Virus record (IMG/VR): IMGVR_UViG_3300000571_000003
Coordinates: 1 to 21,811 of that record
Strand: one strand, 5' to 3'
Source: a virus
Lineage: Duplodnaviria > Heunggongvirae > Uroviricota > Caudoviricetes
DNA: 21,811 nucleotides
Shown: piece by piece, positions 1 through 19,478 of the stretch
Layout: every line of letters begins with the position of its first letter
Numbering within the stretch: position 1 is the stretch's first letter
The notes under the pieces: model-generated
The model's input: the letters and a program-made list of their open reading frames with translations, nothing else
Told to the model about the DNA's origin: nothing
The model's database searches: none
Program-made: the position numbers and the translations under genes

Positions 1-700
1 TTGATCATTCACAACTACATTATGTGTGAGAGCTACATTTACATTCTCTGTTATAGATAGCTGATCATTCACACTCACATTATGTGTAAGAGCTACATTA
101 ACACTCTCTGTTATAGATAGTTGATCATTCACAACTACATTATGTGTGAGAGCTACATTTACATTCTCTGTTATAGATAGCTGATCATTTACATCTATTA
201 CATCTATACCTCCAATTATCACAACACTAACACTTTCTGTTATAGATAATTGATCATTTACATTTATATTACTGAATAGTAATACAGAAACACTTTCTGT
301 AATGGTGAATTGATCATTTATAATAGAATCACCTATTAAAATATCTGTTATAGATAACTGATCATTCACAACTACATTATGTGTGAGAGCTACATTTACA
401 TTCTCTGTTATAGATAGCTGATCATTTACAACTACATTATGTGTGAGAGCTACCGTAGAACTCTCCATTATCATCAAATCATCACTCACTACAACACTAT
501 TAGATGATAAAAGAGTAGAACTTTCCGTAATCATCAACATATCATTTATGTTGATATTACTAAAAAGTACGACCGTAGAACTTTCCGTAATCGTAAACTG
601 ATCATTCACACTCACATTATGTGTAAGAGCTACATTAACACTCTCTGTTATAGATAGTTGATCATTCACAACTACATTATGTGTGAGAGCGACATTAACT
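1..700 (-). repeat. Coding 60-nt (20-aa) tandem/dispersed repeats
   Basis: Unit A at 1-60 and 121-180 is identical, and 358-417 differs only at the first base. Unit B at 61-120 and 598-657 is identical. A partial A follows at 658-690. Degenerate units lie between them. Confidence 0.95.
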
Positions 701-4807: not shown

Positions 4808-6445
4808 TTATTTTAATATTTTTAAAAATTCAGAGTCTACATTATATGATGGATCGATCCTTCGCTTTATTAATACAACCTCTATATTACCGTTTTCGTG
4901 CCAGGTGTTGAATTTAATATTCCAGGGCAAAGGACGATAAATAGAATACAATCCATTCTTATACCACTTATCTATTGGATCAAAATATGACCACGTTTCT
5001 TCGTTAACGAAGTTGCAATTTCCAACCCACGCAACATGTCCATTATATCGTGTAAGAATTGTATGATTTTTTTCAACTTTTACACAAACAATTTTTCCAT
5101 CATACTGTTCTATAAATGGTTTTGGATAAAGCATTTTTTCACTCAATGGACAGACACTAACACGATATTGATCCTTTCTGACATACGACTTATCTCTTAC
5201 TGGAGAAAAAAATTCTTTTCCCTCTCTTAAATAAATATGTGACCTAAATCCACACTTTAACGCTATCTCATTTACATCAGATGCCAATCTTTCTGATATT
5301 GTAGTATATGTATATCCTCTTTCATTATTATGCCACTCTCCATCACCCATCCTCAAAGATTCAAGAAGGCGCTCAAGAAGCAATACGCTCATTCCCTTGT
5401 ATTCTACTGGAATATAACGAACATCTTGCTTTCCTAAATATGAGAGATGATCGAAAAGACTTTTTGAGTTTATTCTTATATAATTCTCATATTCCTTACT
5501 CTCAAAACCCATGCGTCCTACAAGAGAAGATATTTTGTTATAATTTTCAAGATTAGCCGCTTTACTTTGACAAATCTTCAAAAAACGACTCGATGAATCC
5601 TGACCATTTGGTGTTGTAAAGCATCCCTCTGATAATATCCATCCGAGAAGATCCATAAAATCTCCAGCATTGAAAGAAGTAGGACCGTTATCTCCTTCAG
5701 TTTTTTTAATTTCTACCGTATCAGGTTCGTCGCCAATCCATTTCGGAATTGTTGCTATCCCAACCCTTCCGAATGGAGTTTTTTCAAAGAACGAATCTGC
5801 ACGTCTCTTCTCCCATTTTGCTACATTTCCTCTCCATTTTGAAATCATGTCATGATTTGGTGTCACCGCGATATTCACTGCACGATTTTCAAACCTAACT
5901 ATTAGTCCTTCATAATCTTCATTTACAATACCTATACATTTTGAATATTCAGTTTCTTCAGTTTCAAGATTCATAGTAAGTACTTCTTCGCCAATTTTCA
6001 CATCCTGCATTTTTTTAAAACCATCTTTTGTTAAAACCTCAGCTCCATCTACTAGGCAATGCGTGGGATCCCTAAACATCCCCTGTGACGTTGCATATGG
6101 CGCTGCTATAAGGAATTCACCGTCTGGTTTCAAAATACGCCACACTTCATTCATAAATGCGATGAACACGCCGCCATGAGGGTTAATGTGCTCTACTACA
6201 TGTGATGCCATCACGAGTGATGCGCATTCATTGGGTAGTGGCCATGGGAACTTTTCAAGGTCATGCACGATATCTACACCGGGTTCTTTTCTATAATCCA
6301 TTCCAACAAAGCCTAGTTGCTTATTAGCCCCGCATCCAACATCGAGCCTAATCCCTTGCTGATTCTTTTTTAAAATTTCAATGATCATCGGATCTACATA
6401 TCTTTTACTTACACTCTCTTTTTTCTCTTTTATCTTTTTCTTCAT
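4808..6445 (-). CDS. Class I SAM-dependent methyltransferase (Methyltransf_11-like) containing an intein; mature protein ~198 aa
   Basis: RLDVGCGA motif I, SHVVEH, EVWRILKPDG and DPTH motifs; a 347-aa insert follows DPTH. Confidence 0.9.
   Translation of the reverse strand: MKKKIKEKKESVSKRYVDPMIIEILKKNQQGIRLDVGCGANKQLGFVGMDYRKEPGVDIVHDLEKFPWPLPNECASLVMASHVVEHINPHGGVFIAFMNEVWRILKPDGEFLIAAPYATSQGMFRDPTHCLVDGAEVLTKDGFKKMQDVKIGEEVLTMNLETEETEYSKCIGIVNEDYEGLIVRFENRAVNIAVTPNHDMISKWRGNVAKWEKRRADSFFEKTPFGRVGIATIPKWIGDEPDTVEIKKTEGDNGPTSFNAGDFMDLLGWILSEGCFTTPNGQDSSSRFLKICQSKAANLENYNKISSLVGRMGFESKEYENYIRINSKSLFDHLSYLGKQDVRYIPVEYKGMSVLLLERLLESLRMGDGEWHNNERGYTYTTISERLASDVNEIALKCGFRSHIYLREGKEFFSPVRDKSYVRKDQYRVSVCPLSEKMLYPKPFIEQYDGKIVCVKVEKNHTILTRYNGHVAWVGNCNFVNEETWSYFDPIDKWYKNGLYSIYRPLPWNIKFNTWHENGNIEVVLIKRRIDPSYNVDSEFLKILK
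5018..6058 (-). mobile_element. Intein (Hint domain plus LAGLIDADG endonuclease), 347 aa
   Basis: Starts CLVDGAEVLT (block A); VTPNHDM (block B TxxH); LLGWILSEG and LRMGDG endonuclease motifs; ends WVGN followed by +1 Cys (CNFVN). Confidence 0.92.
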
Positions 6446-6460
6446 AAATCTAAATAATAA

Positions 6461-7153
6461 TTAATATTTTATATTGTTTTCTTCTAAAAGTTTTTTGAGA
6501 TTGGCATTTTCTATTTTAATATCATCTACTAACTTCACGGCATCAAAGTGAGCCTTTGTATGTGCCTTACGAGATGGTAGAAGTTCAAGATTTTCTAACC
6601 TGTTGTCATCTGATATTCCATTTAAATGATGGACAACCTCTTCTGGATTTAAATGTCTTCCTATACTCTTTTCAACCACCAGTCTATGCTCCATCACATA
6701 TCCTTCTTGAGTAGAAAATGGATGTTCTGGAGAATATATTGAAATATACCTTCCCTTAACACCAGCTCTTCGTATTCCACCTTTCCAGTTTGCAGCGTCA
6801 GAACCCATTCTTTTCTTTGTATACCTATTCATCATGGCCTGCTTTATCCCTCTAGTACTAATTCCGGAATACATTACAGCAGAACGAACATTTCCTACTG
6901 TTGAACATATTTCTTTAGCTATTTGTCTTAAGGATTTTTTCTGTACAACATATTGATCCTTTAACCACTCTTTGTCACGAAGGAATACATTTTCTGACAC
7001 CCTACCCTTAACGCTTAATCCGTGATATTTAAGTGCCCTTACTACCGTCTTCTGTGAGCAGTCGAGTAGTGTTCTAATGTCCTCGACACTTCTATCCGTA
7101 TTGACATAATTTTCTATAAGAAAATCTTTATCAACATCCTTATATGTTCTCAT
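6461..7153 (-). CDS. Free-standing HNH homing endonuclease (HNH_3-like) with N-terminal helix-turn-helix-like repeats
   Basis: YVMEHRLVVE...EVVHHLNGISDDNRLENLELL motif. The likely start is ATG 7153; the track start at 7213 is the TTG of the promoter -35 box. Confidence 0.88.
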   Translation of the reverse strand: MRTYKDVDKDFLIENYVNTDRSVEDIRTLLDCSQKTVVRALKYHGLSVKGRVSENVFLRDKEWLKDQYVVQKKSLRQIAKEICSTVGNVRSAVMYSGISTRGIKQAMMNRYTKKRMGSDAANWKGGIRRAGVKGRYISIYSPEHPFSTQEGYVMEHRLVVEKSIGRHLNPEEVVHHLNGISDDNRLENLELLPSRKAHTKAHFDAVKLVDDIKIENANLKKLLEENNIKY

Positions 7154-7184: not shown

Positions 7185-7213
7185 AGTATAGCAGAATTAA
7201 ATAGAAGTGTCAA
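7185..7213 (-). promoter_or_regulatory. sigma70-type promoter for the HNH gene
   Basis: TTGACA-17 nt-TATACT with extended -10 TG, ending 31 nt before the ATG at 7153. Confidence 0.75.
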
Positions 7214-11828: not shown

Positions 11829-12430
11829 AAACCGGCAATAACCCGTGCCATTTCGGGGGTAGGAATAAAACCCTACCGGAGAGAGAAGGAGCTAGATCTC
11901 TATATTTAAGATAAATTCAAATTCTTAAATATTCTTGATATTATTTTGGTAAATTCTTCATATCCGTGAGCACTTTTCATCTTATTACACGTAGAGCAGC
12001 ACGGCAAAACATTACCTACCTCATAACCGATAGAACTATCTATTCTGTCAACACCCATTGTGGGTGAATTTATTCCACAGTAGTGACATTTACTAGAAAC
12101 CAACACAGATAAGGTGTCTACAGATATACTAAATGCCAATTTTCTTAATCTAGCATTCTTTGTATAAACATAATATCTACCCCTCACTGTCTCCCTTCTG
12201 TATCTGTTAACCCTTATTTTTTGACAGTCTTTACAAATACTTTTCCTAGAGTTTTTACTGTGACTTTTATTTAATGGAAAGAATTCACGTTCTTTATATT
12301 CGTCACATACCCGACAATGCAATCTTTCCTTTAACTTTTTTTCCATAATACAGAGATCTAGCTCCTTCTTTTTGTGATTTATTGTCCCACCCCTCCGTAG
12401 GACATTCCTAGCTCAACGAGAGACTAGGAA
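11829..12430 (-). ncRNA. Unassigned structured RNA between the MCP and the next gene, with an HNH ORF in one stem-loop
   Basis: Hairpins at 12405-12430, 12383-12404, 11858-11877 and 11829-11857, plus an 18-bp perfect inverted repeat at 12352-12369/11884-11901. Manual pairing only. Confidence 0.5.
11906..12346 (-). CDS. Zn-binding HNH-type (His-Me finger) endonuclease, 146 aa
   Basis: CxxC...CxxC N-terminus; CHYCG...GVDRIDSSIGY...NVLPCCSTCNKMK. Confidence 0.8.
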   Translation of the reverse strand: MEKKLKERLHCRVCDEYKEREFFPLNKSHSKNSRKSICKDCQKIRVNRYRRETVRGRYYVYTKNARLRKLAFSISVDTLSVLVSSKCHYCGINSPTMGVDRIDSSIGYEVGNVLPCCSTCNKMKSAHGYEEFTKIISRIFKNLNLS

Positions 12431-12444
12431 AAACAAGCTGTATT

Positions 12445-12993
12445 CTACGACGTGACCCCTTTTAAAAGGGCATGTTTAGCGCTCTGCGCTCTCTGCAAAC
12501 CTACTTCACTAAGATATTGATCAACAATACCGTCTGCGTCTGGCGCTTGGATGTTGGTCTGAAGTTGCGTATCGCGATTATTCATATAGCGATAGGCAAA
12601 ACATTCCATATCAAGCATAAACGCATAACCGGCATAATCTTCGACAAACAATGGATTATGAACAATGTTCACTGTTCCAAATGCTGTCTGCCATTGGCTG
12701 ATCTTCATACCGTATGTGGTGTCCAATGGTTTTGTGAGAATCTGTCCACGGGCGATTTCATTGATTGCCTGCAAGACGACACCGCCTGCAAAAAGCATCT
12801 TTGTATCATTACCGTAGGTAAATCCTTCACGTAGGAACGTGTTCAAATCAGGAGCAGTCAATGGACCGCCTTGGTTCTGAACATACGAGTTACCACCCTC
12901 GATGAACTCTAGCATACCGCCAGTGGAACGTCGTGGATGGCTCTGTGTTCCTGTGTCTGAATTTTTTTCACTGAACCAGAATGCACGTTCAAT
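12445..12993 (-). CDS. MCP exon 6 (IERAFWF... to stop)
   Basis: The track ORF starts at TTG 12996, whose G is the intron-terminal G; there is no independent start. Confidence 0.88.
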   Translation of the reverse strand: MERAFWFSEKNSDTGTQSHPRRSTGGMLEFIEGGNSYVQNQGGPLTAPDLNTFLREGFTYGNDTKMLFAGGVVLQAINEIARGQILTKPLDTTYGMKISQWQTAFGTVNIVHNPLFVEDYAGYAFMLDMECFAYRYMNNRDTQLQTNIQAPDADGIVDQYLSEVGLQRAQSAKHALLKGVTS

Positions 12994-15900
12994 CAATTTT
13001 GTTATTACCCATTAAGGGTAGGTTGATCATTTCTGTCAACCTCTCTATGTCGCCATAGAGTTCAGACTATATCATTATCCATTTTAATGAACTTCCCTCC
13101 AACCCTATCTCTGCTATTCGCAAAAATAGACATCTTCTGTTTTGTTTCATCTGTTATGGATATACCTCGTTTAGTCGTTGAACCTGGAAATAAAACCTTA
13201 TATTCTTCAAGTCTATTTTGCTTTCTTCCTATATTGAAGTATAGACCGTTTTCTATAAAGCTTTTCTTATTAAACGTAAATTTAGCGAAAATCTTACCTG
13301 ACTTTAATATCTCTCTAGTGATTACTCCAACCCTTATACCATTATTTTGGCAGAAAGAATGAAGTTCATATACCCACAAATCACAAGCTCCTATACCTAT
13401 CTTTAGATCACATACTTTATGACCATTATAGATATGTTCTCTTGTTTTAGATACATACCCTTCACTGTCGAGTAATCCAGATATTAATTCTCTTTGTAGA
13501 ACTTTATCCCACTCAGAGAAGTCTATTGGAAGATTCTTTCTATTATGAGTGATTTCTTGAAGTATATTGCAAAACTTCACGTCACTCAATCTTGTAGAGA
13601 ACACCTTCTTATTAGCCTTAGTAAGTCTATTCTCCTCACCAATACTAACATTATTCTCACTTAACTTTTCAAGATTACTAACTGTCTTCTTTACAAAATC
13701 ATGGTCTATCGCTTGTAACATAAATGTTCTTTTGTCAGAACATATCGACCCGTCTCCTAAAAAGACTCCTAATATATACGCTAAATTTTTGTTCATATTT
13801 CCTTGGCTGCGGATTGTCCCCACTAATTCATTGTTGCTCTTTGGCAGAATTAGATACTTGGGAGTTTCCCGCAATTAAGAGTTATTTAATTATGATGTTA
13901 CCACCATAATGGACACTATTCTATCCAAAGCGTGTTCTGTTCCCTTCTTTGCTCTCTGGTAAGGAAGCATTATTGTTACATTCCATTAAAGGAATGGCAT
14001 AGTCATTTCTGCTATGCTCTACGTGTCTCCATCGTAGATCGGACTATATCATCTCCCATAGGGAGTTTAGCGTATAGTCTCTGGGGATTTAAGCACGCTT
14101 TAACAGTTTTAATTGTTCATATATCTCATGATCCCTTTCTATATAAGGGACATTTTTATATACTGCCGATCTTCTATTAAGAAACTCTTTTACAAGAGCT
14201 ACTTGTTCTTTTTTCGTTACAGTATATTCACTAATGAGATCAATGAACTTCTTTATTCGTTCAAATCCATTTACTTCCACTACCCAACTTTCTCTCCACC
14301 CTTTTTTTGATGGACGATATTTTATGTAGTGAGTAACATTGAACGATTTTAACTGTTCTGATAGATAATCTATGGTTTTTTTATCCGTGTTAGCGATAAC
14401 GACACTTGGTCTATAAGTATCTTTATAATGAGGCTGTCTTTTATCAGTCCTCTTCCAAAGACCTATATAACCTTCTCCATCAAAAAAACCTGCTATCCAT
14501 CCTATCGTACTTAGCTTTCCTGCATGATTGTCTCTATCCATAACATTATTACCTAAGAAGTAATTATGGCTTAACGAGATGTTCCAGCATATGGCTAAAT
14601 TTTACAAGGACCATTCTCTTAATCCTTTCCTCCGTAGAGGTTGGCTTCCTTCTCAGTATTACTCAAGGCAATAGTTGTCTTGAAAATCTGTTACAATCTT
14701 GACATCATTTTTAATGTCTGATAAGATTACCTTATCACTCATATTCTCATATGAGGAGCGACTATATCTTCACTAAACCTTAGTGTTCGACGTATAGTCT
14801 GTGAGAATTTAACTTAACTATATCTATGAATATCAACAAAACATGCAAATTGTGCTCTCAACCTTTTGAAACTAATTTTAACAATAAAATTTTTTGTTCT
14901 AATAAGTGTAAGGATGAATGCTGTAAGTTTTTTCCACGGCGGGTGTCAGATGAGAAAAAATGTATTATCTGTGATAATATATTTACTCCCAAAAGAGAGA
15001 GTACAAATCTATGCTCTAGAAAATGTATAGACATATCCTATAACAATAAACGTCCCAGAAAAACCGATAAGAGATATCATGAAACGTTAGCGATAAAGAA
15101 AAAATCATTAAATAAAGAACAATTAGAAATAATCTATGGTTCTATATTGGGTGATGGATTCTTATCACTACAAACAGACGGTTTCCACCGCTTATCTTTA
15201 TGTCATTCTGAGAAACAATTAGACTATTTAAAGTTCAAGATGTCTAAATTATCTATTATATTTAGACAGAAAGAACCTAATAGATTTGTAAATCCAGAAC
15301 ACCTATATAAAGATTACATCATGAAAGAGAAAGTTCAGTATCATGCTCATTCTATATCCCATCCTTCTTTAACTAATCTTTACGGAATGTGTTATAGAAA
15401 TAAGAGACAAATGATAGACAGAAGATTTTTAAATCTTATGTCTGAAACTTCTCTTCTTATTTGGTTTTTAGATGATGGATGTTTAGATAAAAGAAATAGA
15501 AATTCTATATTATGCACTAATTCTTTTTCTATTTCTGAAGTATCTGCTATAAAGAAGTGGCTTTGGCAAAGATTTAAACTTACTGCCAAAATCAGAACAT
15601 CTTCCGGATATCCAATCATCTCATTCTCTGTGGAAGAAACTCGTAACCTTGTTGATATTTTGAGGCAAAGCCCCATTTTCAATGAACTTCCTGATTGTAT
15701 GCTATATAAGCTTACAATCAGACCATATAATTAAGTTATCTTTTCTGCTGATTGACCCTATTCATAGAATTTTCAGGGTTCGCCGGTAGGTCGCCCCAGC
15801 CCGGTATCCTATCTATGACTTAACAGGTTATCCCAGCATATAGTCGAATTTTACTACACCCAGATTGGTTGTTTCAAAGTGTAGTTTGTTTGGGCAGATG

Positions 15901-18467
15901 ATCTTGTTGCGTTTACATTTCGTGCTCCAGCATTCTCTTCACTTACATTACCAACGATGAATAATCCATCGCCAGCTGCACCTGCTGCAGCAGCTGTTGC
16001 TCCATATGAGCGAGTAGCTGTAATAGATGTTGTACTTGCAATAGTCAGAACAACAAGATTTTCTCCTGTACGAGCATTCTTAATTACATCTCCAACTGTG
16101 AAGATATAAGCTGAACTTGAACCGGCACCAGTTACACTAATTGTATCAGTGCCTGCGGTATAAGTTGCACTTACGCGAGCATATCTACCACCATAGAAGT
16201 CTTCGAACCACTTAAATTCCGGATTTCCTGTAGCTCGTTTGAGCATTGAGGAACCCTTCCATCCTTTTCCATCGTATGTTTTACCTACGTTTGTAAGTAA
16301 TGTAACTAATGGATGCTTATTCTTGTGTTAACTGCATGTCGCCATGCAGATCAGACTATATCTTCACCCTTTTAAAAGGGGACTAGCGTGCAGTCGTTGA
16401 GGCTACCAAACATCTTCTTACCTTTCTATCTAACATAAAGAAGAGTCCTGCATTAAAGAAACTTATTGGTTTTACATTAAATCTACAGAATATTTTTCCA
16501 TTTTTTGTTATAAATTCTTCCATTTTTAATGGTATAACATTTAATGATATCAACATATTTCTAAATTCAATTATCCATGTAGATTTTATTCCTCCAATAC
16601 CAATTCTATACTGAAATAATCCTGGATATTTTTTTCTTTCAGTCTTACTTATCCATCCATCTCCATCCATTACACCAGCAATAAACCATTTTTTTATGTT
16701 TAATTCAGAATTTAATATCTGTATAGGAATCTTAAATTTATCTTCTGTTATTTTTTTAAAAAATTTTGCATATTCACCTATACCAAGTTTTATTACATAC
16801 CTATCACTCTTATTCCAACCTTTTCTTTCACATCTTTTTCTTAAATATGCTTTTGTAGTTGGTATAAATATTTTCCAATATTCTAATACTCTTTCAGCAA
16901 AATCCTTATCAATAACTTGAAGATTGAAATTACATTCTGTAATTGATGCATCTGTTAAATAAACACCAATTAAATAAGCAAGTTCTTTATGCTCTATTTG
17001 GTCTTGCCTGCTGATTGTCTCTAAAACAATATTTTTACACTTAGGTAATTGATCTTTCATATATACTTATTATAGCACATTCTTAACTACTTGTCAAGTA
17101 TATATACGAGAGTTTCCAGCATATAGCTAGTTTTCCTTATAATCTTAATGCTCTCCCATTATTACTAATAGGCGACCCAATAAGTCTAGGTTCAAGCAAG
17201 AAGATCTTATCTGTAGCATCGACGATTAATCGTCCCTCTGCATCAGATGTGGTAGTTGTTCGCCCTGCATTTGCTGCTGTTAATGTAATTGCCGCTCCCT
17301 GGTCATGGGTCGGCTCGGTGTAGTGATTGATATTTTCTAAGGAATAATTATTTCCTACCTACGCTCTCACGTAGGATTAGACTGGCTCATCATTGTTTTT
17401 TGAACAATGTTTCACGTACAGTCGTTGAGGTTGACACTGTTTTGGTTTTGTGTTATAATAGATATATAAAAATTAATATCTATTTTATGAACAAAACATG
17501 TAAATTCTGCAATAAATATTTTATAGCAGAGGGTAAAAATTCATGGAAAAAATTATTTTGTAATGTGATCTGCCAACAAGAATTTTGGTCTATTCAAAGA
17601 AACAAAACAGGTATAAAGAATAAACCATCTAGAGATCTTGCCAATCGATATAAGAGTAACATTCTTACTGACAAGCAAATACAAATATGCTTAGGAGGAA
17701 TGATGGGTGATTCATCTATTAATATTAGACCAAACGGAAGGTGTAGATTATTAATGAATCATTGTGAAGCTCAAAACAAATATTTAGATTGGAAGAAAGA
17801 TATATTATATCCTTTTATCATCCAAGCTAAGGCAAATATTTGTCTTAATAAAGATAGGGTAATCAATGGAGTAGAGATAAACTCTACGCCTTCCTACCAT
17901 TACGCAAGTATCCAACATCAATATTTTACAGATCTTTTTGGACTATTTTACACAACATACCTAGGAGAAAAAAGAAAGAGAGTAAATATGAACATATTAA
18001 ATATGTTACAGCCACTAGCTATTCTTATTTGGTTCCTAGATGATGGTTGCTACTATTCTCAACCAAAGCATTCATCACACACCATGTATCTATCGACATA
18101 TCGCTATACATTAGGAGAACATCAAACCATGAAAAAATGGTTCTGGCATAAATGGAGAATAGAAATGACTATTACTCCAACAAATCAGAATACTAAATTC
18201 ATATTACGTATGAATAAAGAAAATATGATTAAGTTTAATAACTTATTCTTATTCCAATTTAAGGATGATGTACCGGAATGTATGCATTACAAATTCCCGA
18301 ATTTTTAACAGTGCCTTACCTGCGGATTGTGATTATCCATGAAATTATTAGGGTTCGCTGCAAGATTACTCCATACAGTATCCTATCCATGGCCTAACAT
18401 CGGTTCCCCGCATATAGTGAAATTTTACATCCGCGCTACATTACGTTCACGGATAAACATTAGGCAT
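12445..18467 (-). CDS. Major capsid protein, 420 aa after splicing: join(18467-18449,17324-17188,16321-15878,14690-14622,13967-13923,12993-12445)
   Basis: Exons total 1263 nt and join in frame: MPNVYP-Y-YTEPTHDQG...KIFLLEP|NKHPLVTLL...NPEFKWFED...QTNYT|QIFKTTIALS...GGKD|LPYQRAKKGTEHALD|IERAFWF...SEVGLQ...HALLKGVTS. Position after portal/scaffold and these motifs resemble DUF5309/SU10-type MCPs (from recall, not searched). Confidence 0.85.
12994..13922 (-). mobile_element. Group I intron 5 of MCP (929 nt)
   Basis: P1 UGGAU/GUCCA with U.G; P4 UGCGG/CCGCA; P7 GACUA/UAGUC; P9 CUCUAUG-GCGA-CAUAGAG; ends AAAAUUG. Confidence 0.9.
13062..13796 (-). CDS. Intron-encoded two-motif LAGLIDADG endonuclease
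   Basis: LAYILGVFLGDGSI and LISGLLDSEGYV; the likely start is ATG 13796, since the track start lies in P4. Confidence 0.88.
   Translation of the reverse strand: MNKNLAYILGVFLGDGSICSDKRTFMLQAIDHDFVKKTVSNLEKLSENNVSIGEENRLTKANKKVFSTRLSDVKFCNILQEITHNRKNLPIDFSEWDKVLQRELISGLLDSEGYVSKTREHIYNGHKVCDLKIGIGACDLWVYELHSFCQNNGIRVGVITREILKSGKIFAKFTFNKKSFIENGLYFNIGRKQNRLEEYKVLFPGSTTKRGISITDETKQKMSIFANSRDRVGGKFIKMDNDIV
13923..13967 (-). CDS. MCP exon 5 (45 nt, LPYQRAKKGTEHALD)
   Basis: Bounded by the intron 4 terminal G and the intron 5 P1 U.G pair; preserves frame. Confidence 0.85.
13968..14621 (-). mobile_element. Group I intron 4 of MCP (654 nt)
   Basis: P1 AAGGAU/GUCCUU; P3 UUUAGC/GCUAAA; P7 GACUA/UAGUC; P8 CUCCC/GGGAG; P9-P9.2 hairpins; ends AAUAAUG. 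Confidence 0.9.
14089..14541 (-). CDS. Intron-encoded single-motif LAGLIDADG endonuclease (150 aa)
   Basis: WIAGFFDGEGYIG motif. Confidence 0.88.
   Translation of the reverse strand: MDRDNHAGKLSTIGWIAGFFDGEGYIGLWKRTDKRQPHYKDTYRPSVVIANTDKKTIDYLSEQLKSFNVTHYIKYRPSKKGWRESWVVEVNGFERIKKFIDLISEYTVTKKEQVALVKEFLNRRSAVYKNVPYIERDHEIYEQLKLLKRA
14622..14690 (-). CDS. MCP exon 4 (69 nt, QIFKTTIALSNTEKEANLYGGKD)
   Basis: In-frame 23 codons; the 5' boundary could be 14687 instead (see findings). Confidence 0.8.
14699..14727 (+). promoter_or_regulatory. Putative sigma70-type promoter for the antisense endonuclease of intron 3
   Basis: TTGACA (14699-14704)-17 nt-TAAGAT (14722-14727) with extended TG at 14719-14720. 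Confidence 0.55.
14826..15734 (+). CDS. Zn-finger plus LAGLIDADG_2-type endonuclease, antisense to intron 3
   Basis: Two CxxC...CSxxC modules; IIYGSILGDGFL and LIWFLDDG motifs. Confidence 0.88.
   Translation: MNINKTCKLCSQPFETNFNNKIFCSNKCKDECCKFFPRRVSDEKKCIICDNIFTPKRESTNLCSRKCIDISYNNKRPRKTDKRYHETLAIKKKSLNKEQLEIIYGSILGDGFLSLQTDGFHRLSLCHSEKQLDYLKFKMSKLSIIFRQKEPNRFVNPEHLYKDYIMKEKVQYHAHSISHPSLTNLYGMCYRNKRQMIDRRFLNLMSETSLLIWFLDDGCLDKRNRNSILCTNSFSISEVSAIKKWLWQRFKLTAKIRTSSGYPIISFSVEETRNLVDILRQSPIFNELPDCMLYKLTIRPYN
15878..16321 (-). CDS. MCP exon 3 (444 nt, NKHPLVTLL...QTNYT)
   Basis: Contains track ORF 15854..16246; extends upstream in frame to the intron 2 terminal G at 16322. Confidence 0.88.
16383..17060 (-). 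CDS. Intron-encoded two-motif LAGLIDADG endonuclease (225 aa)
   Basis: LAYLIGVYLTDASI and FIAGVMDGDGWIS motifs. Confidence 0.88.
   Translation of the reverse strand: MKDQLPKCKNIVLETISRQDQIEHKELAYLIGVYLTDASITECNFNLQVIDKDFAERVLEYWKIFIPTTKAYLRKRCERKGWNKSDRYVIKLGIGEYAKFFKKITEDKFKIPIQILNSELNIKKWFIAGVMDGDGWISKTERKKYPGLFQYRIGIGGIKSTWIIEFRNMLISLNVIPLKMEEFITKNGKIFCRFNVKPISFFNAGLFFMLDRKVRRCLVASTTAR
17069..17097 (-). promoter_or_regulatory. Consensus sigma70 promoter inside intron 2 (L5)
   Basis: TTGACA-17 nt-TATAAT with extended TG; the ATG follows 8 nt after the -10 box. Confidence 0.8.
17188..17324 (-). CDS. MCP exon 2 (137 nt, ..YTEPTHDQG...KIFLLEP)
   Basis: Open frame with no in-frame ATG after the upstream in-frame stop, so it needs splicing to exon 1; the 5' boundary is inferred from P10. 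Confidence 0.75.
17431..17459 (+). promoter_or_regulatory. Consensus sigma70 promoter for the antisense endonuclease of intron 1
   Basis: TTGACA (17431-17436)-17 nt-TATAAT (17454-17459) with extended TG. Confidence 0.82.
17487..18308 (+). CDS. Zn-finger plus LAGLIDADG_2-type endonuclease, antisense to intron 1 (273 aa)
   Basis: MNKTCKFC...CNVIC; CLGGMMGDSSI and LIWFLDDG motifs. ATG 17487 lies downstream of the promoter, whereas the track start at 17400 lies upstream of it. Confidence 0.88.
   Translation: MNKTCKFCNKYFIAEGKNSWKKLFCNVICQQEFWSIQRNKTGIKNKPSRDLANRYKSNILTDKQIQICLGGMMGDSSINIRPNGRCRLLMNHCEAQNKYLDWKKDILYPFIIQAKANICLNKDRVINGVEINSTPSYHYASIQHQYFTDLFGLFYTTYLGEKRKRVNMNILNMLQPLAILIWFLDDGCYYSQPKHSSHTMYLSTYRYTLGEHQTMKKWFWHKWRIEMTITPTNQNTKFILRMNKENMIKFNNLFLFQFKDDVPECMHYKFPNF
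18449..18467 (-). CDS. MCP exon 1 (19 nt, ATG CCT AAT GTT TAT CCG T)
   Basis: First ATG after the scaffold stop; ends at the U of the P1 U.G pair. Confidence 0.7.
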
Positions 18468-18523
18468 ATAACAACTGTTATTATTTATTTACTTAAATTG
18501 TCAATGAACACCTTACCCTATTG

Positions 18524-19279
18524 TCAGAAAATATTTGGATTGGTTCTACCAGCTATAAGCCGATCAACAACCTCTCCAGTATTAGGCACATAATAACTTC
18601 CAGACTGGCCACCACCTGGAGCCTGTCCTTTTTGATATTCAGCTGCATCTCTTTCTGCACGCTTCTTAGACTCAACTTCTGAAACCTCACCTTTAACCGC
18701 ATAATATGCGATCTTGATATCAGTCACATCATGTTCGTCTATCCAAGTATTTATCCTATCAGCATAATCTGCGAAATCAGGAGTATTTGCTATGAATTCA
18801 TTAACGCCAACCTCAAAATTCCTCATTTCCTCTGATTCTTTTAAATCTTTTCCAAGTTCACGTTTCACTTCGCCTACCTTTTCTTCAATAAGCTTCGTGA
18901 GTTCTTCAGCGCTTGCGGAAGAATAGGCCTTTTTGCCTAATTCTTTCTGTACGTTTTCATGGGCTTGAGTGACCACCTTTGCATCGCCTATGGTAACTTT
19001 GTCCTCTAATACGGCTTTCGCCAAATCAGTGTCAATTTTACCATCAACGATTGCCTGAACAAGTTCAGGACTTTTGTCTAATTTTTCAAGGAGTGGTGAA
19101 ATTCCCTCAAAGAAACTTCGAAATTCCCCTAATTCATTTCCCATTCCTCCCATTTTAGACTCTAACTCTTCATATAACGCTTTATAATCAGTTCCATCTC
19201 CAGATGGCTGCCCAGCTGAGGCTGGACCATTGTCAGGGCTACCCGGCATCCCACCGGACCCAAGGTTTGGATCAGTCAT
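18524..19279 (-). CDS. Capsid scaffolding protein (251 aa)
   Basis: Acidic, helical/coiled-coil, P/G-rich N-terminus; immediately upstream of the MCP. Confidence 0.75.
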   Translation of the reverse strand: MTDPNLGSGGMPGSPDNGPASAGQPSGDGTDYKALYEELESKMGGMGNELGEFRSFFEGISPLLEKLDKSPELVQAIVDGKIDTDLAKAVLEDKVTIGDAKVVTQAHENVQKELGKKAYSSASAEELTKLIEEKVGEVKRELGKDLKESEEMRNFEVGVNEFIANTPDFADYADRINTWIDEHDVTDIKIAYYAVKGEVSEVESKKRAERDAAEYQKGQAPGGGQSGSYYVPNTGEVVDRLIAGRTNPNIF

Positions 19280-19319
19280 ATTTTTCTATCTTCATAATTA
19301 ATTAATAATGAACACTTTT

Positions 19320-19478
19320 CTAGCTCTTTTTAAACTTTTTTCCGGAAAGTTTCTTTGCAATAGCCGCAAGATCTACCTTACCACCACCCATATTACTCAT
19401 TTCACCGCTCATATGCCTTTTCATTGCATCACCGACAATATCACACTTCATTGACTTCATTTTTCCTTTATCCATCAT
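19320..19478 (-). CDS. Small K/M/G-rich protein (52 aa, MMDKGKMKSMKC...KKFKKS); not in track
   Basis: Manual translation; packs tightly between neighbouring genes. Confidence 0.6.
   Translation of the reverse strand: MMDKGKMKSMKCDIVGDAMKRHMSGEMSNMGGGKVDLAAIAKKLSGKKFKKS

What the first reader, a model, noticed from the sequence alone, without database searches (positions are those of the whole stretch)
14699..18308. Two paralogous Zn-finger LAGLIDADG genes inserted antisense in L6, with promoters written into the intron structure
Seen: both ORFs start MN(I)NKTCK.C, share the LGD/LIWFLDDG motifs and end P(D/E)CM.YK. Both lie on the + strand in L6. In intron 1 the -35 TTGACA (17431) is the complement of the P6/P6a 3' strand. 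In intron 3 the TTGACA-17-TGnTAAGAT promoter (14699-14727) is the complement of P9.1/P9.2, next to the 3' splice site. I see no terminator before the antisense transcripts reach the intron 5' cores and MCP exons. Known: antisense HEGs occur in some nuclear group I introns but are unusual in phage. Inference: this decouples nuclease expression from splicing, and the antisense RNA could modulate splicing or MCP expression.
Basis: partly seen in the sequence, partly recalled or inferred. Interest (0 to 1): 0.72.

Follow-up and report, generated by a model that had tools for sequence, protein, structure and literature searches.

The report
Backwards homing-endonuclease genes in capsid introns
Two self-splicing introns in a phage capsid gene each carry a DNA-cutting "homing" gene on the opposite strand. 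Each gene has its own bacterial-type promoter built into DNA that also encodes the ribozyme, a layout reported once before in a phage and shown here, by comparison with related phages, to be conserved.

Summary
The window is the first 21.8 kb of an 86.5-kb uncultured phage contig. Its SU10-type major capsid gene lies on the minus strand and is split by five group I introns.

- **The genes.** Introns 1 and 3 are paralogous ribozymes. Each holds an intact I-SceI-type (Pfam LAGLIDADG_2) double-motif endonuclease gene with N-terminal Cys4 modules, on the plus strand, in the loop of P6 (17487-18308 and 14826-15734).
- **The promoters.** Each gene is preceded by a TTGACA-17-TGnTAnAAT promoter. The first (17431-17459, 12/12) overlaps the P6 3' strand and L6. 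The second (14699-14727, 10/12) lies in the complement of P9.1/P9.2, beside the 3' splice site.
- **Conservation.** All 14 antisense relatives examined score 9-12/12, always with a 17-nt spacer. Eleven sense-oriented relatives score 7-9/12 (p = 2e-5). One of these sits in the homologous intron at the same capsid site.
- **Phylogeny.** The two genes belong to separate, site-specific clades.

The best reading is two autonomous, promoter-carrying endonuclease cassettes, transcribed by host RNA polymerase independently of capsid mRNA and of splicing. Regulation of splicing by the antisense RNA remains untested.

The layout is not new in kind: mycobacteriophage LittleE (Pope 2013) has it, and so does Didymium I-DirII. 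This scan also found it earlier in other phage families.

The parts
17334..18448 (-). Group I intron 1 of the capsid gene
   Evidence: The 5' splice site follows U18449, which sits in a 7-bp P1 with a U.G pair. The core elements AAUCCGCAG (P4'/J), P6, P7, P8, J8/7 and P9 can be read in the sequence. The 5' half is homologous to intron 3 (alignment A4). The 3' end is set by protein homology and P10 and is uncertain, because no omega G lies there. Rfam gives no hit.
17487..18308 (+). Antisense LAGLIDADG_2 homing endonuclease gene of intron 1 (273 aa, one Cys4 module)
   Evidence: Pfam PF03161, E 3.7e-26. Nineteen homologues were found. Those with known context (L021, L022, L024, L029) are all antisense at the same capsid site.
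17431..17459 (+). Promoter of the intron 1 endonuclease gene: TTGACA-17-TGT-TATAAT (12/12, extended -10), 28 nt before the ATG
   Evidence: The -35 and -10 are invariant or nearly so in five orthologous introns (A2). Other introns with the same P7 core but no antisense ORF lack TTGACA.
17433..17439 (-). P6 3' strand of intron 1 (CAGUGUC), overlapped by the -35 hexamer
   Evidence: Pairs with GGCACUG at 18315..18309. Covaries in L024 (GACAUUA/UAAUGUC) and L021 (GACGCUG).
18309..18315 (-). P6 5' strand of intron 1, abutting the endonuclease stop codon (18306-18308)
14691..15877 (-). Group I intron 3 of the capsid gene
   Evidence: Exon borders from tblastn with orthologues. P1 is ACUACACU/GGGUGUAGU with a U.G pair; P10 is CAGAUU/AAUCUG. 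Rfam Intron_gpI scores 38.3 bits, E 3e-7, below the 50-bit cut-off. The intron is homologous to those of L016, L017 and L027 at the same site.
14826..15734 (+). Antisense LAGLIDADG_2 homing endonuclease gene of intron 3 (302 aa, two Cys4 modules)
   Evidence: Pfam PF03161, E 3.2e-28. AlphaFold2 model has pLDDT 90; best PDB matches are I-WcaI and I-SceI, TM about 0.82. Both catalytic Asp motifs are invariant.
14699..14727 (+). Promoter of the intron 3 endonuclease gene: TTGACA-17-TGA-TAAGAT (10/12, extended -10), 99 nt before the ATG
   Evidence: The homologous position scores 12/12 in L016, 11/12 in L203 and 10/12 in L206, and has no match in the sense-gene intron L017.
14701..14737 (-). P9.1 (14737..14731 / 14725..14719) and P9.2 (14718..14714 / 14705..14701) hairpins, whose complement carries the -10 and -35
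   Evidence: Read from the sequence. Equivalent hairpins are present in L016 and L017.
14810..14817 (-). P6 3' strand of intron 3 (UUAAGUUA)
   Evidence: Pairs with UAACUUAA at 15738..15731, which overlaps the stop codon. A compensatory change occurs in L027 (UGAC/GUCA).
17069..17097 (-). Context: perfect TTGACA-17-TGC-TATAAT promoter of the sense-oriented LAGLIDADG_3 gene of intron 2 (17060..16383), divergent from the intron 1 promoter across exon 2
   Evidence: Nearly identical to the phage promoter at 31720.
18449..18467 (-). Capsid exon 1 (ATG CCT AAT GTT TAT CCG T, 19 nt)
   Evidence: MPNVYP matches the N-termini of the orthologues.

Best explanation
Introns 1 and 3 of the capsid gene are paralogous group I ribozymes. 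Each carries, in the terminal loop of P6, an autonomous homing-endonuclease cassette pointing the opposite way. Each cassette holds an intact monomeric I-SceI-type LAGLIDADG enzyme with one or two N-terminal zinc-ribbon-like modules. Each is transcribed from its own host-type (sigma-70) promoter. The promoter hexamers are written into DNA whose other strand encodes ribozyme helices: P6 3' strand and L6 in intron 1, P9.1/P9.2 in intron 3.

The nuclease mRNA is therefore a separate molecule from the capsid pre-mRNA. Its synthesis needs neither capsid (late) transcription nor splicing, and ribosomes translating it never enter the ribozyme. Presumably the enzymes cut intron-less capsid alleles of co-infecting relatives at the two insertion sites and drive homing of intron plus gene.

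Shown here: gene identity and integrity, antisense position in L6, the promoter motifs and their conservation, and the existence of two site-specific endonuclease lineages. Inferred: actual transcription, early timing, nuclease activity and target.
For: - Exon map with six intron-less orthologues.
- Intron cores and P6 read from the sequence, and homologous between introns 1 and 3.
- Pfam, PDB sequence search and fold evidence for an I-SceI-type enzyme with both catalytic Asp motifs.
- Promoters at 12/12 and 10/12, each with an extended -10.
- Uniform comparison: 14 antisense genes score 9-12/12, all with a 17-nt spacer; 11 sense genes score 7-9/12; Mann-Whitney p = 2e-5; random windows reach 11 or more in 1.1%.
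- At the same capsid site (residue 203/204), in homologous introns, the antisense forms (window, L016, L203, L206, L027, L204) have a promoter and the sense form (L017) does not.
- Among 14 unrelated introns sharing the P7 core, only the two with an antisense LAGLIDADG_2 ORF have TTGACA-17-TAnAAT.
- In L027 the -35-creating U-to-C change in the P6 3' strand is compensated by an A-to-G change in the 5' strand.
- The phage uses this promoter type genome-wide. Other near-perfect copies precede HNH nuclease genes.
- The endonuclease tree has two clades with 100/100 support, one per insertion site.
Against: - There are no transcript data. All promoter evidence is sequence-based, and the relatives are not phylogenetically independent.
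- The intron 3 promoter is only 10/12 and lies 99 nt upstream, behind a structured leader.
- L205 has only a weak match, 8-9/12.
- Neither ORF has a Shine-Dalgarno sequence, although the capsid gene lacks one too.
- Part of the -35 of intron 1 is also constrained by P6 pairing.
- Rfam hits are below the gathering score for intron 3 and absent for intron 1.
- The homology-predicted 3' splice sites of both introns lack the canonical terminal G. Efficient splicing, and so the premise of a healthy host intron, is not assured.
Confidence: 0.8

Rival explanations
1. The promoter-like hexamers are by-products of AT-rich sequence and of ribozyme sequence constraints. The antisense ORFs are then silent or decaying passengers that are not expressed from these sites.
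For: - The -35 of intron 1 overlaps the conserved P6 3' strand and J6/7.
- The conserved core itself produces 9/12 pseudo-promoters, such as TTCACT-18-TATAGT at 14769-14798, in all relatives.
- About 8% of random windows reach 10/12.
Against: - The -10 elements lie in L6 or in variable P9.x hairpins and are still conserved, with an exact 17-nt spacer in 14 of 14 cases.
- Introns with the same core but no antisense ORF lack TTGACA.
- The sense homologue at the same site has no promoter.
- The ORFs are intact with invariant catalytic residues across lineages that are 26-67% identical.
Confidence: 0.06
2. The antisense transcription units have been co-opted as regulators. Early plus-strand RNA, complementary to the ribozyme 3' core and, by read-through, to exons, blocks splicing or triggers duplex cleavage until late transcription overrides it. 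This would time or dose capsid production.
For: - No terminator-like site lies downstream of either ORF before the intron 5' cores and exons.
- The 92-nt leader of the intron 3 gene is fully complementary to the intron from P6 3' strand to P9.1.
- The promoters are convergent with capsid transcription.
Against: - There is no direct evidence.
- In class B relatives (L027, L204) the promoter sits 9-11 nt from the ATG, so almost no ribozyme is covered on the 5' side. The long complementary leader is therefore not a conserved feature.
- Sense and intron-less relatives manage without it.
Confidence: 0.1
3. The encoded proteins act mainly as maturases that help two defective ribozymes, which lack a terminal G, to splice. 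They would be supplied in trans from the opposite strand.
For: - Introns 1 and 3, the two with antisense genes, lack G at the homology- and P10-predicted 3' junction, while introns 2, 4 and 5 are canonical.
- The same holds for L016, L203, L206, L022 and L024.
- LAGLIDADG maturases exist; bI3 maturase and I-AniI are among the fold matches.
Against: - Both catalytic Asp motifs are intact.
- Antisense relatives L027, L204, L205 and L029 do have a terminal G, so the link is incomplete.
- The best structural matches are nucleases.
Confidence: 0.07

Closest known systems
Capsid-gene group I intron of mycobacteriophage LittleE with gp14 (Pope et al. 2013, PMC3706429)
   Same: [quoted passage not shown] Splicing was shown by RT-PCR.
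   Different: LittleE has one intron and one I-CreI-like 177-aa protein, and no promoter was described or compared. Here there are two paralogous I-SceI-type Zn-finger genes in two paralogous introns of one gene. Their promoters are mapped onto ribozyme helices and supported by comparison of 14 antisense with 11 sense relatives. A sense-oriented homologue sits at the same site.
I-DirII in the Didymium iridis nuclear rDNA group I intron (Johansen et al. 2006, as reviewed in PMC3073962)
   Same: The homing endonuclease gene is antisense to its host group I intron and is expressed from its own promoter, independently of host-gene transcription.
   Different: I-DirII is eukaryotic, with a Pol II promoter, a spliceosomal intron and a poly(A) tail. 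It is a His-Cys box enzyme and its host gene is an rRNA. Here the promoter is bacterial sigma-70 type, the enzyme is LAGLIDADG and the host is a protein-coding late phage gene.
[quoted passage not shown]
   Same: The intron-encoded nuclease genes have private promoters inside the intron that give them a different timing from the host gene. The stated rationale is to keep ribosomes out of the ribozyme core.
   Different: The T4 genes are on the sense strand, rely on phage middle or late promoters plus hairpins that sequester the ribosome-binding site, and are GIY-YIG or HNH enzymes. Here the same conflict is solved by inverting the gene.
I-SceI / I-WcaI (PDB 1r7m, 6x1j)
   Same: Same Pfam family (LAGLIDADG_2) and same monomeric two-motif fold. 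Profile E is 9e-11 and TM is about 0.82 normalised to the target.
   Different: Identity is about 22%. The phage proteins add one to three N-terminal CxxC...CxxxC modules that the solved enzymes lack.

Membership tests
LAGLIDADG_2 (I-SceI-type) homing endonuclease | Match to PF03161 above the curated cut-off | tested here: met
   99.2 and 92.5 bits against a cut-off of 25.
LAGLIDADG_2 (I-SceI-type) homing endonuclease | Two LAGLIDADG motifs, each with the catalytic acidic residue, in one chain | tested here: met
   ILGDG with FLDDG in one protein and MMGDS with FLDDG in the other. G109, D110, D216, D217 and G218 are invariant in 19 homologues.
LAGLIDADG_2 (I-SceI-type) homing endonuclease | Monomeric alpha-beta-beta-alpha-beta-beta-alpha x2 fold | tested here: met
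   AlphaFold2 pLDDT is 90. Foldseek finds I-WcaI at E 4e-16, TM 0.83, and I-SceI at TM 0.82.
LAGLIDADG_2 (I-SceI-type) homing endonuclease | Site-specific double-strand cleavage of the intron-less allele | not testable with these tools
   Needs an enzyme assay on intron-less capsid alleles such as those in L007-L011.
Group I intron | P1 with a U.G pair at the 5' splice site, and an internal guide that also pairs with the 3' exon (P10) | tested here: met
   Intron 1: UAUCCGU/GCGGAUG, with covariation in L024 (CCA/UGG), and P10 CUACA/UGUAG. Intron 3: ACUACACU/GGGUGUAGU, and P10 CAGAUU/AAUCUG.
Group I intron | Conserved catalytic core (P3-P8, J8/7) recognised by the Rfam model RF00028 | tested here: inconclusive
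   Intron 3 scores 38.3 bits, E 3e-7, below the 50-bit cut-off. Intron 1 gives no hit, because the 0.9-kb L6 insert splits the model. The core elements are visible by eye and are homologous between the two introns.
Group I intron | Terminal guanosine (omega G) at the 3' splice site | tested here: not met
   At the junction predicted by protein homology and P10, the last intron base is C in intron 1 and A in intron 3. Introns 2, 4 and 5 end in G. For intron 3, an in-frame G 3 nt downstream would delete one conserved Gln.
Group I intron | Removal restores the host reading frame | tested here: met
   The six exon pieces cover residues 1-422 of the orthologous capsid proteins without gaps.
Group I intron | Self-splicing | not testable with these tools
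   Needs in vitro transcription and splicing, or RT-PCR.
Antisense intron-borne homing endonuclease gene with a private promoter (I-DirII / LittleE gp14 type) | ORF lies wholly inside the intron, on the strand opposite to the ribozyme | tested here: met
   Both ORFs lie between the two strands of P6 on the plus strand.
Antisense intron-borne homing endonuclease gene with a private promoter (I-DirII / LittleE gp14 type) | Own promoter upstream of the ORF | tested here: met
   Consensus matches of 12/12 and 10/12 with an extended -10, conserved in relatives and absent from sense forms. This is sequence evidence only.
Antisense intron-borne homing endonuclease gene with a private promoter (I-DirII / LittleE gp14 type) | Antisense transcript detected in vivo | not testable with these tools
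   No transcriptome is available for this uncultured phage.

The most novel reading that the evidence does not exclude
The inverted cassettes are more than selfish passengers. The early antisense transcripts, complementary to the ribozyme 3' core and running unterminated into the 5' core and exons, would hold capsid pre-mRNA unspliced or have it degraded until late transcription silences the convergent promoters. Placing the promoter in P9.1/P9.2 beside the 3' splice site is then tied to the loss of the canonical terminal G in exactly those introns (window, L016, L203, L206). That would make splicing conditional on the cassette, through its RNA or its protein acting as a maturase.
Probability: 0.1. 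Interest if true: 0.8.

Novelty: new variant of a known kind. Interest (0 to 1): 0.55.

Why it matters
Sense-strand intron endonuclease genes create a known conflict in bacteria: ribosomes translating the nuclease disturb ribozyme folding, as in T4 I-TevI. Inverting the gene and giving it a host-type promoter removes that conflict. It also frees nuclease timing from a late structural gene.

This window offers an unusually clean natural comparison. The same capsid site and homologous ribozyme carry a homologous nuclease gene antisense with a promoter in most relatives, and sense without one in another lineage. The promoter also occupies two alternative positions inside ribozyme-coding DNA.

The comparison shows that one DNA stretch can satisfy both RNA-structure and promoter constraints; L027 even has a compensated -35-creating substitution in P6. 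It supplies concrete constructs for testing convergent transcription across a self-splicing intron. The enzymes are also candidates for new I-SceI-type meganucleases with accessory zinc modules.

It is not a new kind of element. LittleE and I-DirII set the precedent, and this scan has met the layout in other phage families.

Tried and rejected
- **Nearest phages.** Megablast and tblastn against GenBank phages found no close relative of the region or of the capsid exon. The nearest annotated nuclease was in Bacillus phage Sophrita, at 27% identity.
- **Single-protein locus search.** A single-protein search of IMG/VR with the intron 3 gene found nothing. The alignment-based search worked.
- **Rfam.** The gathering threshold gave no hit in the window.
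- **Free-standing genes.** I rejected the idea that the plus-strand ORFs are free-standing intergenic genes. Intron cores flank both, and exon 1 (MPNVYP) lies beyond the second one.
- **TTGACA as an intrinsic core feature.** I rejected the idea that TTGACA after the P7 core is intrinsic to this intron class. Twelve other introns with the same core lack it. The 16-nt pattern scan returned mostly chance hits; only 14 of 120 had an intron context.
- **Operator.** I looked for an I-TevI-style operator, meaning similarity between the promoter region and the missing half of the homing site. Only 4 of 14 bases matched by eye, so I dropped it.
- **Start-codon sequestration.** Leader folds are not unusually stable (z -1.4, -1.0, -2.0) and leave the AUG largely open. 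The intron 1 leader is unstructured.
- **Mirror reading frame.** Earlier scan reports on other phages described a 'mirror' open frame on the capsid strand. It is not present here: each minus-strand frame has 13-30 stops, and TTA, CTA and TCA codons are not avoided.
- **Canonical U...G splice sites.** For intron 1, every in-frame G gives a stop or fails in L021 and L024. For intron 3, only a one-codon shift works. I left this unresolved; it is the subject of a separate finding.
Full report
**Setting.** The window is bases 1-21811 of an 86.5-kb linear IMG/VR phage contig, estimated 87% complete. Almost all long ORFs lie on the minus strand. Between a scaffold-like gene (19279..18524) and downstream structural genes lies a major capsid gene of the SU10 type; Pfam PF17236 is recorded on orthologues. 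Nine related contigs were fetched with the last exon. Six of them (L007-L011, L014) encode an uninterrupted capsid protein of 419-424 residues.

**Exon and intron map.** A tblastn search of those proteins against the window gives six collinear pieces on the minus strand:

| Exon | Coordinates | Note |
|---|---|---|
| 1 | 18467..18449 | read by eye: ATG CCT AAT GTT TAT CCG T |
| 2 | ~17333..17188 | |
| 3 | 16321..15878 | |
| 4 | 14690..14622 | |
| 5 | 13967..13923 | |
| 6 | 12993..12448 | |

The gene therefore has five introns. Rfam's group I model finds sub-threshold matches in four of them (37-40 bits, E 1e-6 to 1e-10, cut-off 50) and nothing in intron 1. Introns 2, 4 and 5 carry sense-strand LAGLIDADG_1/3 genes. 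Introns 1 and 3 carry the two plus-strand ORFs of this finding.

**The two ORFs.**
- The first is 14826-15734 (302 aa). The second is 17487-18308 (273 aa); the listed TTG start at 17400 lies upstream of the promoter and is not the real start.
- Both match Pfam LAGLIDADG_2, with E 3e-28 and 4e-26.
- They align end to end at 26% identity, E 8e-29.
- A profile of 19 homologues finds I-SceI in the PDB sequence set at E 9e-11.
- The AlphaFold2 model (pLDDT 90) superposes on I-WcaI and I-SceI with TM about 0.82.
- Both LAGLIDADG motifs keep their catalytic Asp. G109, D110, D216, D217 and G218 are invariant.
- The N-termini carry CxxC-n-CxxxC modules: two in the intron 3 protein and one in the intron 1 protein. 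Orthologues have one to three copies, and the last module's four Cys are invariant. 'Zn-finger' is thus a reasonable reading of the Cys4 pattern. No Pfam zinc-finger model passes its threshold.

**Position in the introns.**
- *Intron 3.* It has a clear P1 (ACUACACU/GGGUGUAGU, with U.G at the splice site), a P4-P6 core, P7, P8, J8/7 (GAAGAUAUAGUC), P9, P9.1 and P9.2. P6 is UAACUUAA (15738..15731, overlapping the stop codon) paired with UUAAGUUA (14817..14810). The ORF fills the loop between them.
- *Relatives of intron 3.* An RNAalifold run on ORF-deleted introns from the window, L016, L027 and L017 closes the same helix around the insertion point. L027 shows a compensatory change, UGAC/GUCA.
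- *Intron 1.* It has a 7-bp P1 (UAUCCGU/GCGGAUG) that covaries in L024 (CCA/UGG). It also has the P4'/J motif AAUCCGCAG and a P6, GGCACUG (18315..18309) paired with CAGUGUC (17439..17433). This P6 covaries in L024 and L021. P7, P8, J8/7 and P9 follow.
- *Paralogy.* The 5' halves of introns 1 and 3 align with 69% mean column identity. The two ribozymes are paralogues, like their passengers.

**Promoters.** A sigma-70 scan of 12400-19400 gives three outstanding sites:
- plus strand 17431-17459, TTGACA-17-TATAAT, 12/12 with TG;
- plus strand 14699-14727, TTGACA-17-TAAGAT, 10/12 with TG;
- minus strand 17097-17069, 12/12 with TG, upstream of the sense gene of intron 2.

The total number of weak matches in the region is below the shuffle expectation, so only the strong sites count. 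Genome-wide there are 15 sites with 11 or more matches, against about 6 in shuffles. Seven form a tight family, acTTGACAagt...TGCTATACT, mostly in the non-structural region at 31-61 kb. This shows the promoter type is in real use by this phage. Several of the perfect TATAAT copies precede nuclease genes: HNH_3 at 7153..6464 and at genome position 54284-54862.

- The -35 at 17431-17436 is the complement of the last four bases of the P6 3' strand plus J6/7. Its -10 lies in L6.
- The 14699-14727 promoter is the complement of the 3' strands of P9.2 and P9.1. It starts 8 nt from the exon.

**Comparative test.** Homologues of both proteins were found in the large protein collection, and their contigs were inspected. 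IMG/VR loci found with the alignment were added.

*Intron 3 site (capsid residue 203/204).* The homologous intron carries the homologous gene in either orientation:
- antisense in the window, the P0002 contig, L016, L203, L204, L205, L206 and L027;
- sense in L017-L020 and L025/L026.

*Intron 1 site.* All relatives seen (L021, L022/L045, L024, L029) are antisense.

*Uniform score.* I took the best TTGACA/TATAAT match, with a 16-18 nt spacer, in the 200 nt before the start codon.

| Set | n | Best match (of 12) | Spacer |
|---|---|---|---|
| Antisense genes | 14 | 9-12 | 17 nt in every case |
| Sense-oriented LAGLIDADG_2 intron genes | 11 | 7-9 | 16-18 nt |
| Random 200-nt windows, same loci | 2000 | 10 or more in 7.6%; 11 or more in 1.1% | not applicable |

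Mann-Whitney p is 2e-5. The sequences are related, so this p-value overstates independence.

*Qualitative support.*
- In five intron 1 orthologues the -10 positions T, A, A, T are invariant, although they lie in the otherwise variable L6.
- The intron 3 promoter position is 12/12 in L016 and 11/12 in L203, and is unrecognisable in the sense form L017.
- Of 14 other introns sharing the P7 core CCUCAACGACU, only the two with an antisense Zn-finger LAGLIDADG ORF (L029's contig and L158) have TTGACA-17-TAnAAT next to it. L124, an ORF-less relative of L158's intron, has TTGATA in a closed P6 hairpin.

**Two promoter placements.** At the intron 3 site the promoter occupies one of two places.
- *Class A* (window, L016, L203, L206): the promoter lies in the complement of P9.1/P9.2, giving a leader of about 100 nt that is complementary to the intron from the P6 3' strand to P9.1.
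- *Class B* (L027, L204, weakly L205): the promoter lies in the P6 3' strand and L6, 9-11 nt from the ATG. The -35 TTGACT is created by a U-to-C change in the P6 3' strand that is compensated in the 5' strand.

Intron 1 resembles class B, with a 28-nt unstructured AT-rich leader. The class A leaders fold into mirror images of P9 and P7/P8 but leave the start codon mostly open, and they are not unusually stable.

**Phylogeny.** An IQ-TREE analysis of 26 proteins separates intron 1-site and intron 3-site enzymes with 100/100 support. The window's two genes are old paralogues, each belonging to a site-specific lineage. The only sense-oriented lineage (P0011) nests among antisense ones with moderate support (86/88). 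Antisense therefore appears to be the prevailing state for this family in these phages, and probably the older one.

**Mechanism.** What is shown:
- intact nuclease genes;
- an antisense position in L6;
- conserved consensus promoters;
- no terminator-like site downstream, on a simple scan.

What follows from established knowledge of T4 introns is the rationale. There, private promoters and translational hairpins keep nuclease translation from disturbing ribozyme folding (PMC2988022). An inverted gene with its own promoter solves the same problem outright and uncouples nuclease timing from a late gene.

Early expression by host polymerase is an inference from the promoter type. Modulation of splicing by the antisense RNA is possible but unsupported. 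The class B arrangement shows that extensive 5' complementarity to the ribozyme is not conserved.

**Comparison with the literature.**
- An antisense endonuclease gene with its own promoter is established for I-DirII in Didymium (PMC3073962).
- For phages, Pope et al. 2013 reported that the LittleE capsid intron has a LAGLIDADG-like frame 'on the bottom strand', transcribed leftwards, and that the intron splices (PMC3706429). I reached this paper through earlier notes of this scan and checked it myself.
- The 2014 review of bacterial group I introns (PMC3984707) does not mention antisense orientation.
- My searches found no paper analysing promoters of such genes in phages. The paper library is incomplete, so this absence is weak evidence.
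- Earlier notes of this scan report the same backwards layout in other phage capsid introns with I-CreI-like enzymes. No close relative of the present genes appears in those notes. The 'mirror' open frame described there is absent here.

**Verdict.** The regulatory speculation is untested. This is a well-documented new variant of a known but little-studied layout. I rate interest moderate to high (0.55), mainly for three things:
- the natural sense/antisense comparison;
- the dual coding of promoter and ribozyme;
- the unexplained link between the class A promoter position and the missing terminal G.

Noticed in passing
window 14688-14691 and 17332-17334; L016, L203, L206, L021, L022, L024: At the 3' junction predicted by protein homology and P10, intron 3 ends in A (UUGUAA|CAGAUU) and intron 1 ends in C (AAUC|ACUACA). 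Introns 2, 4 and 5 end in G. At the intron 3 site, the four relatives with the promoter in P9.x all have A|CA(G/A). The three class B antisense relatives and the sense form L017 have G|CA(G/A). At the intron 1 site, L021, L022 and L024 lack G and L029 has it.
   Followed up: partly
window 17069-17097 (-): The sense-strand LAGLIDADG_3 gene of intron 2 has a perfect TTGACA-17-TGC-TATAAT promoter 9 nt before its ATG. It is nearly identical to the phage promoter at genome position 31720. It is divergent from the intron 1 promoter, so the 146-nt exon 2 lies between two outward-facing promoters.
   Followed up: partly
window 7185-7213 (-); genome 54249-54276 (+) and 41159-41187 (-) (L208, L207): Other near-perfect sigma-70 promoters in this genome sit 8-32 nt upstream of free-standing HNH_3 endonuclease genes (window 7153..6464; L208 85-663) and of a Cys-rich 188-aa ORF with no Pfam match. 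Selfish nuclease genes in this phage generally seem to bring their own host-type promoter.
   Followed up: partly
L022 4037-4873 and 5136-5924 (also L045): A relative carries two antisense LAGLIDADG_2 genes near the 5' end of its capsid gene. Each has its own promoter (9/12+TG and 11/12+TG). Capsid residues 8-46 are encoded between them (4982..4881), so they lie in two adjacent introns. The second promoter ends 7 nt before the ATG, which suggests a nearly leaderless mRNA.
   Followed up: no
L158 5783-6600; L124 about 288-360 (-): An unrelated IMG/VR contig has the same design: a 262-aa Zn-finger LAGLIDADG gene antisense in P6 of a group I intron, behind TTGACA-17-TGC-TACAAT. L124 is an ORF-less relative in which P6 closes as a simple hairpin containing TTGATA.
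   Followed up: partly
window 17385-17398 (-): J8/7 of intron 1 reads GAUGAGCCAGUC in the window. Orthologues have GAUGAUAUAGUC (L024) or GAUGAUAAAGUC (L021, L029). That is three changes in a normally invariant active-site strand.
   Followed up: no
window 14800-14826, 17460-17487, 18468-18490: The endonuclease genes and the capsid gene have no Shine-Dalgarno sequence before their start codons. Leaders are AT-rich and unstructured. Together with TTGACA/TATAAT promoters, this may help to narrow the unknown host.
   Followed up: no
alignment A1 (orthologues of the intron 3 gene): The N-terminal CxxC...CSxxC module is present in one, two or three tandem copies in different orthologues (about 255, 302 and 350 aa). 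This copy-number variation may tune DNA binding.
   Followed up: no
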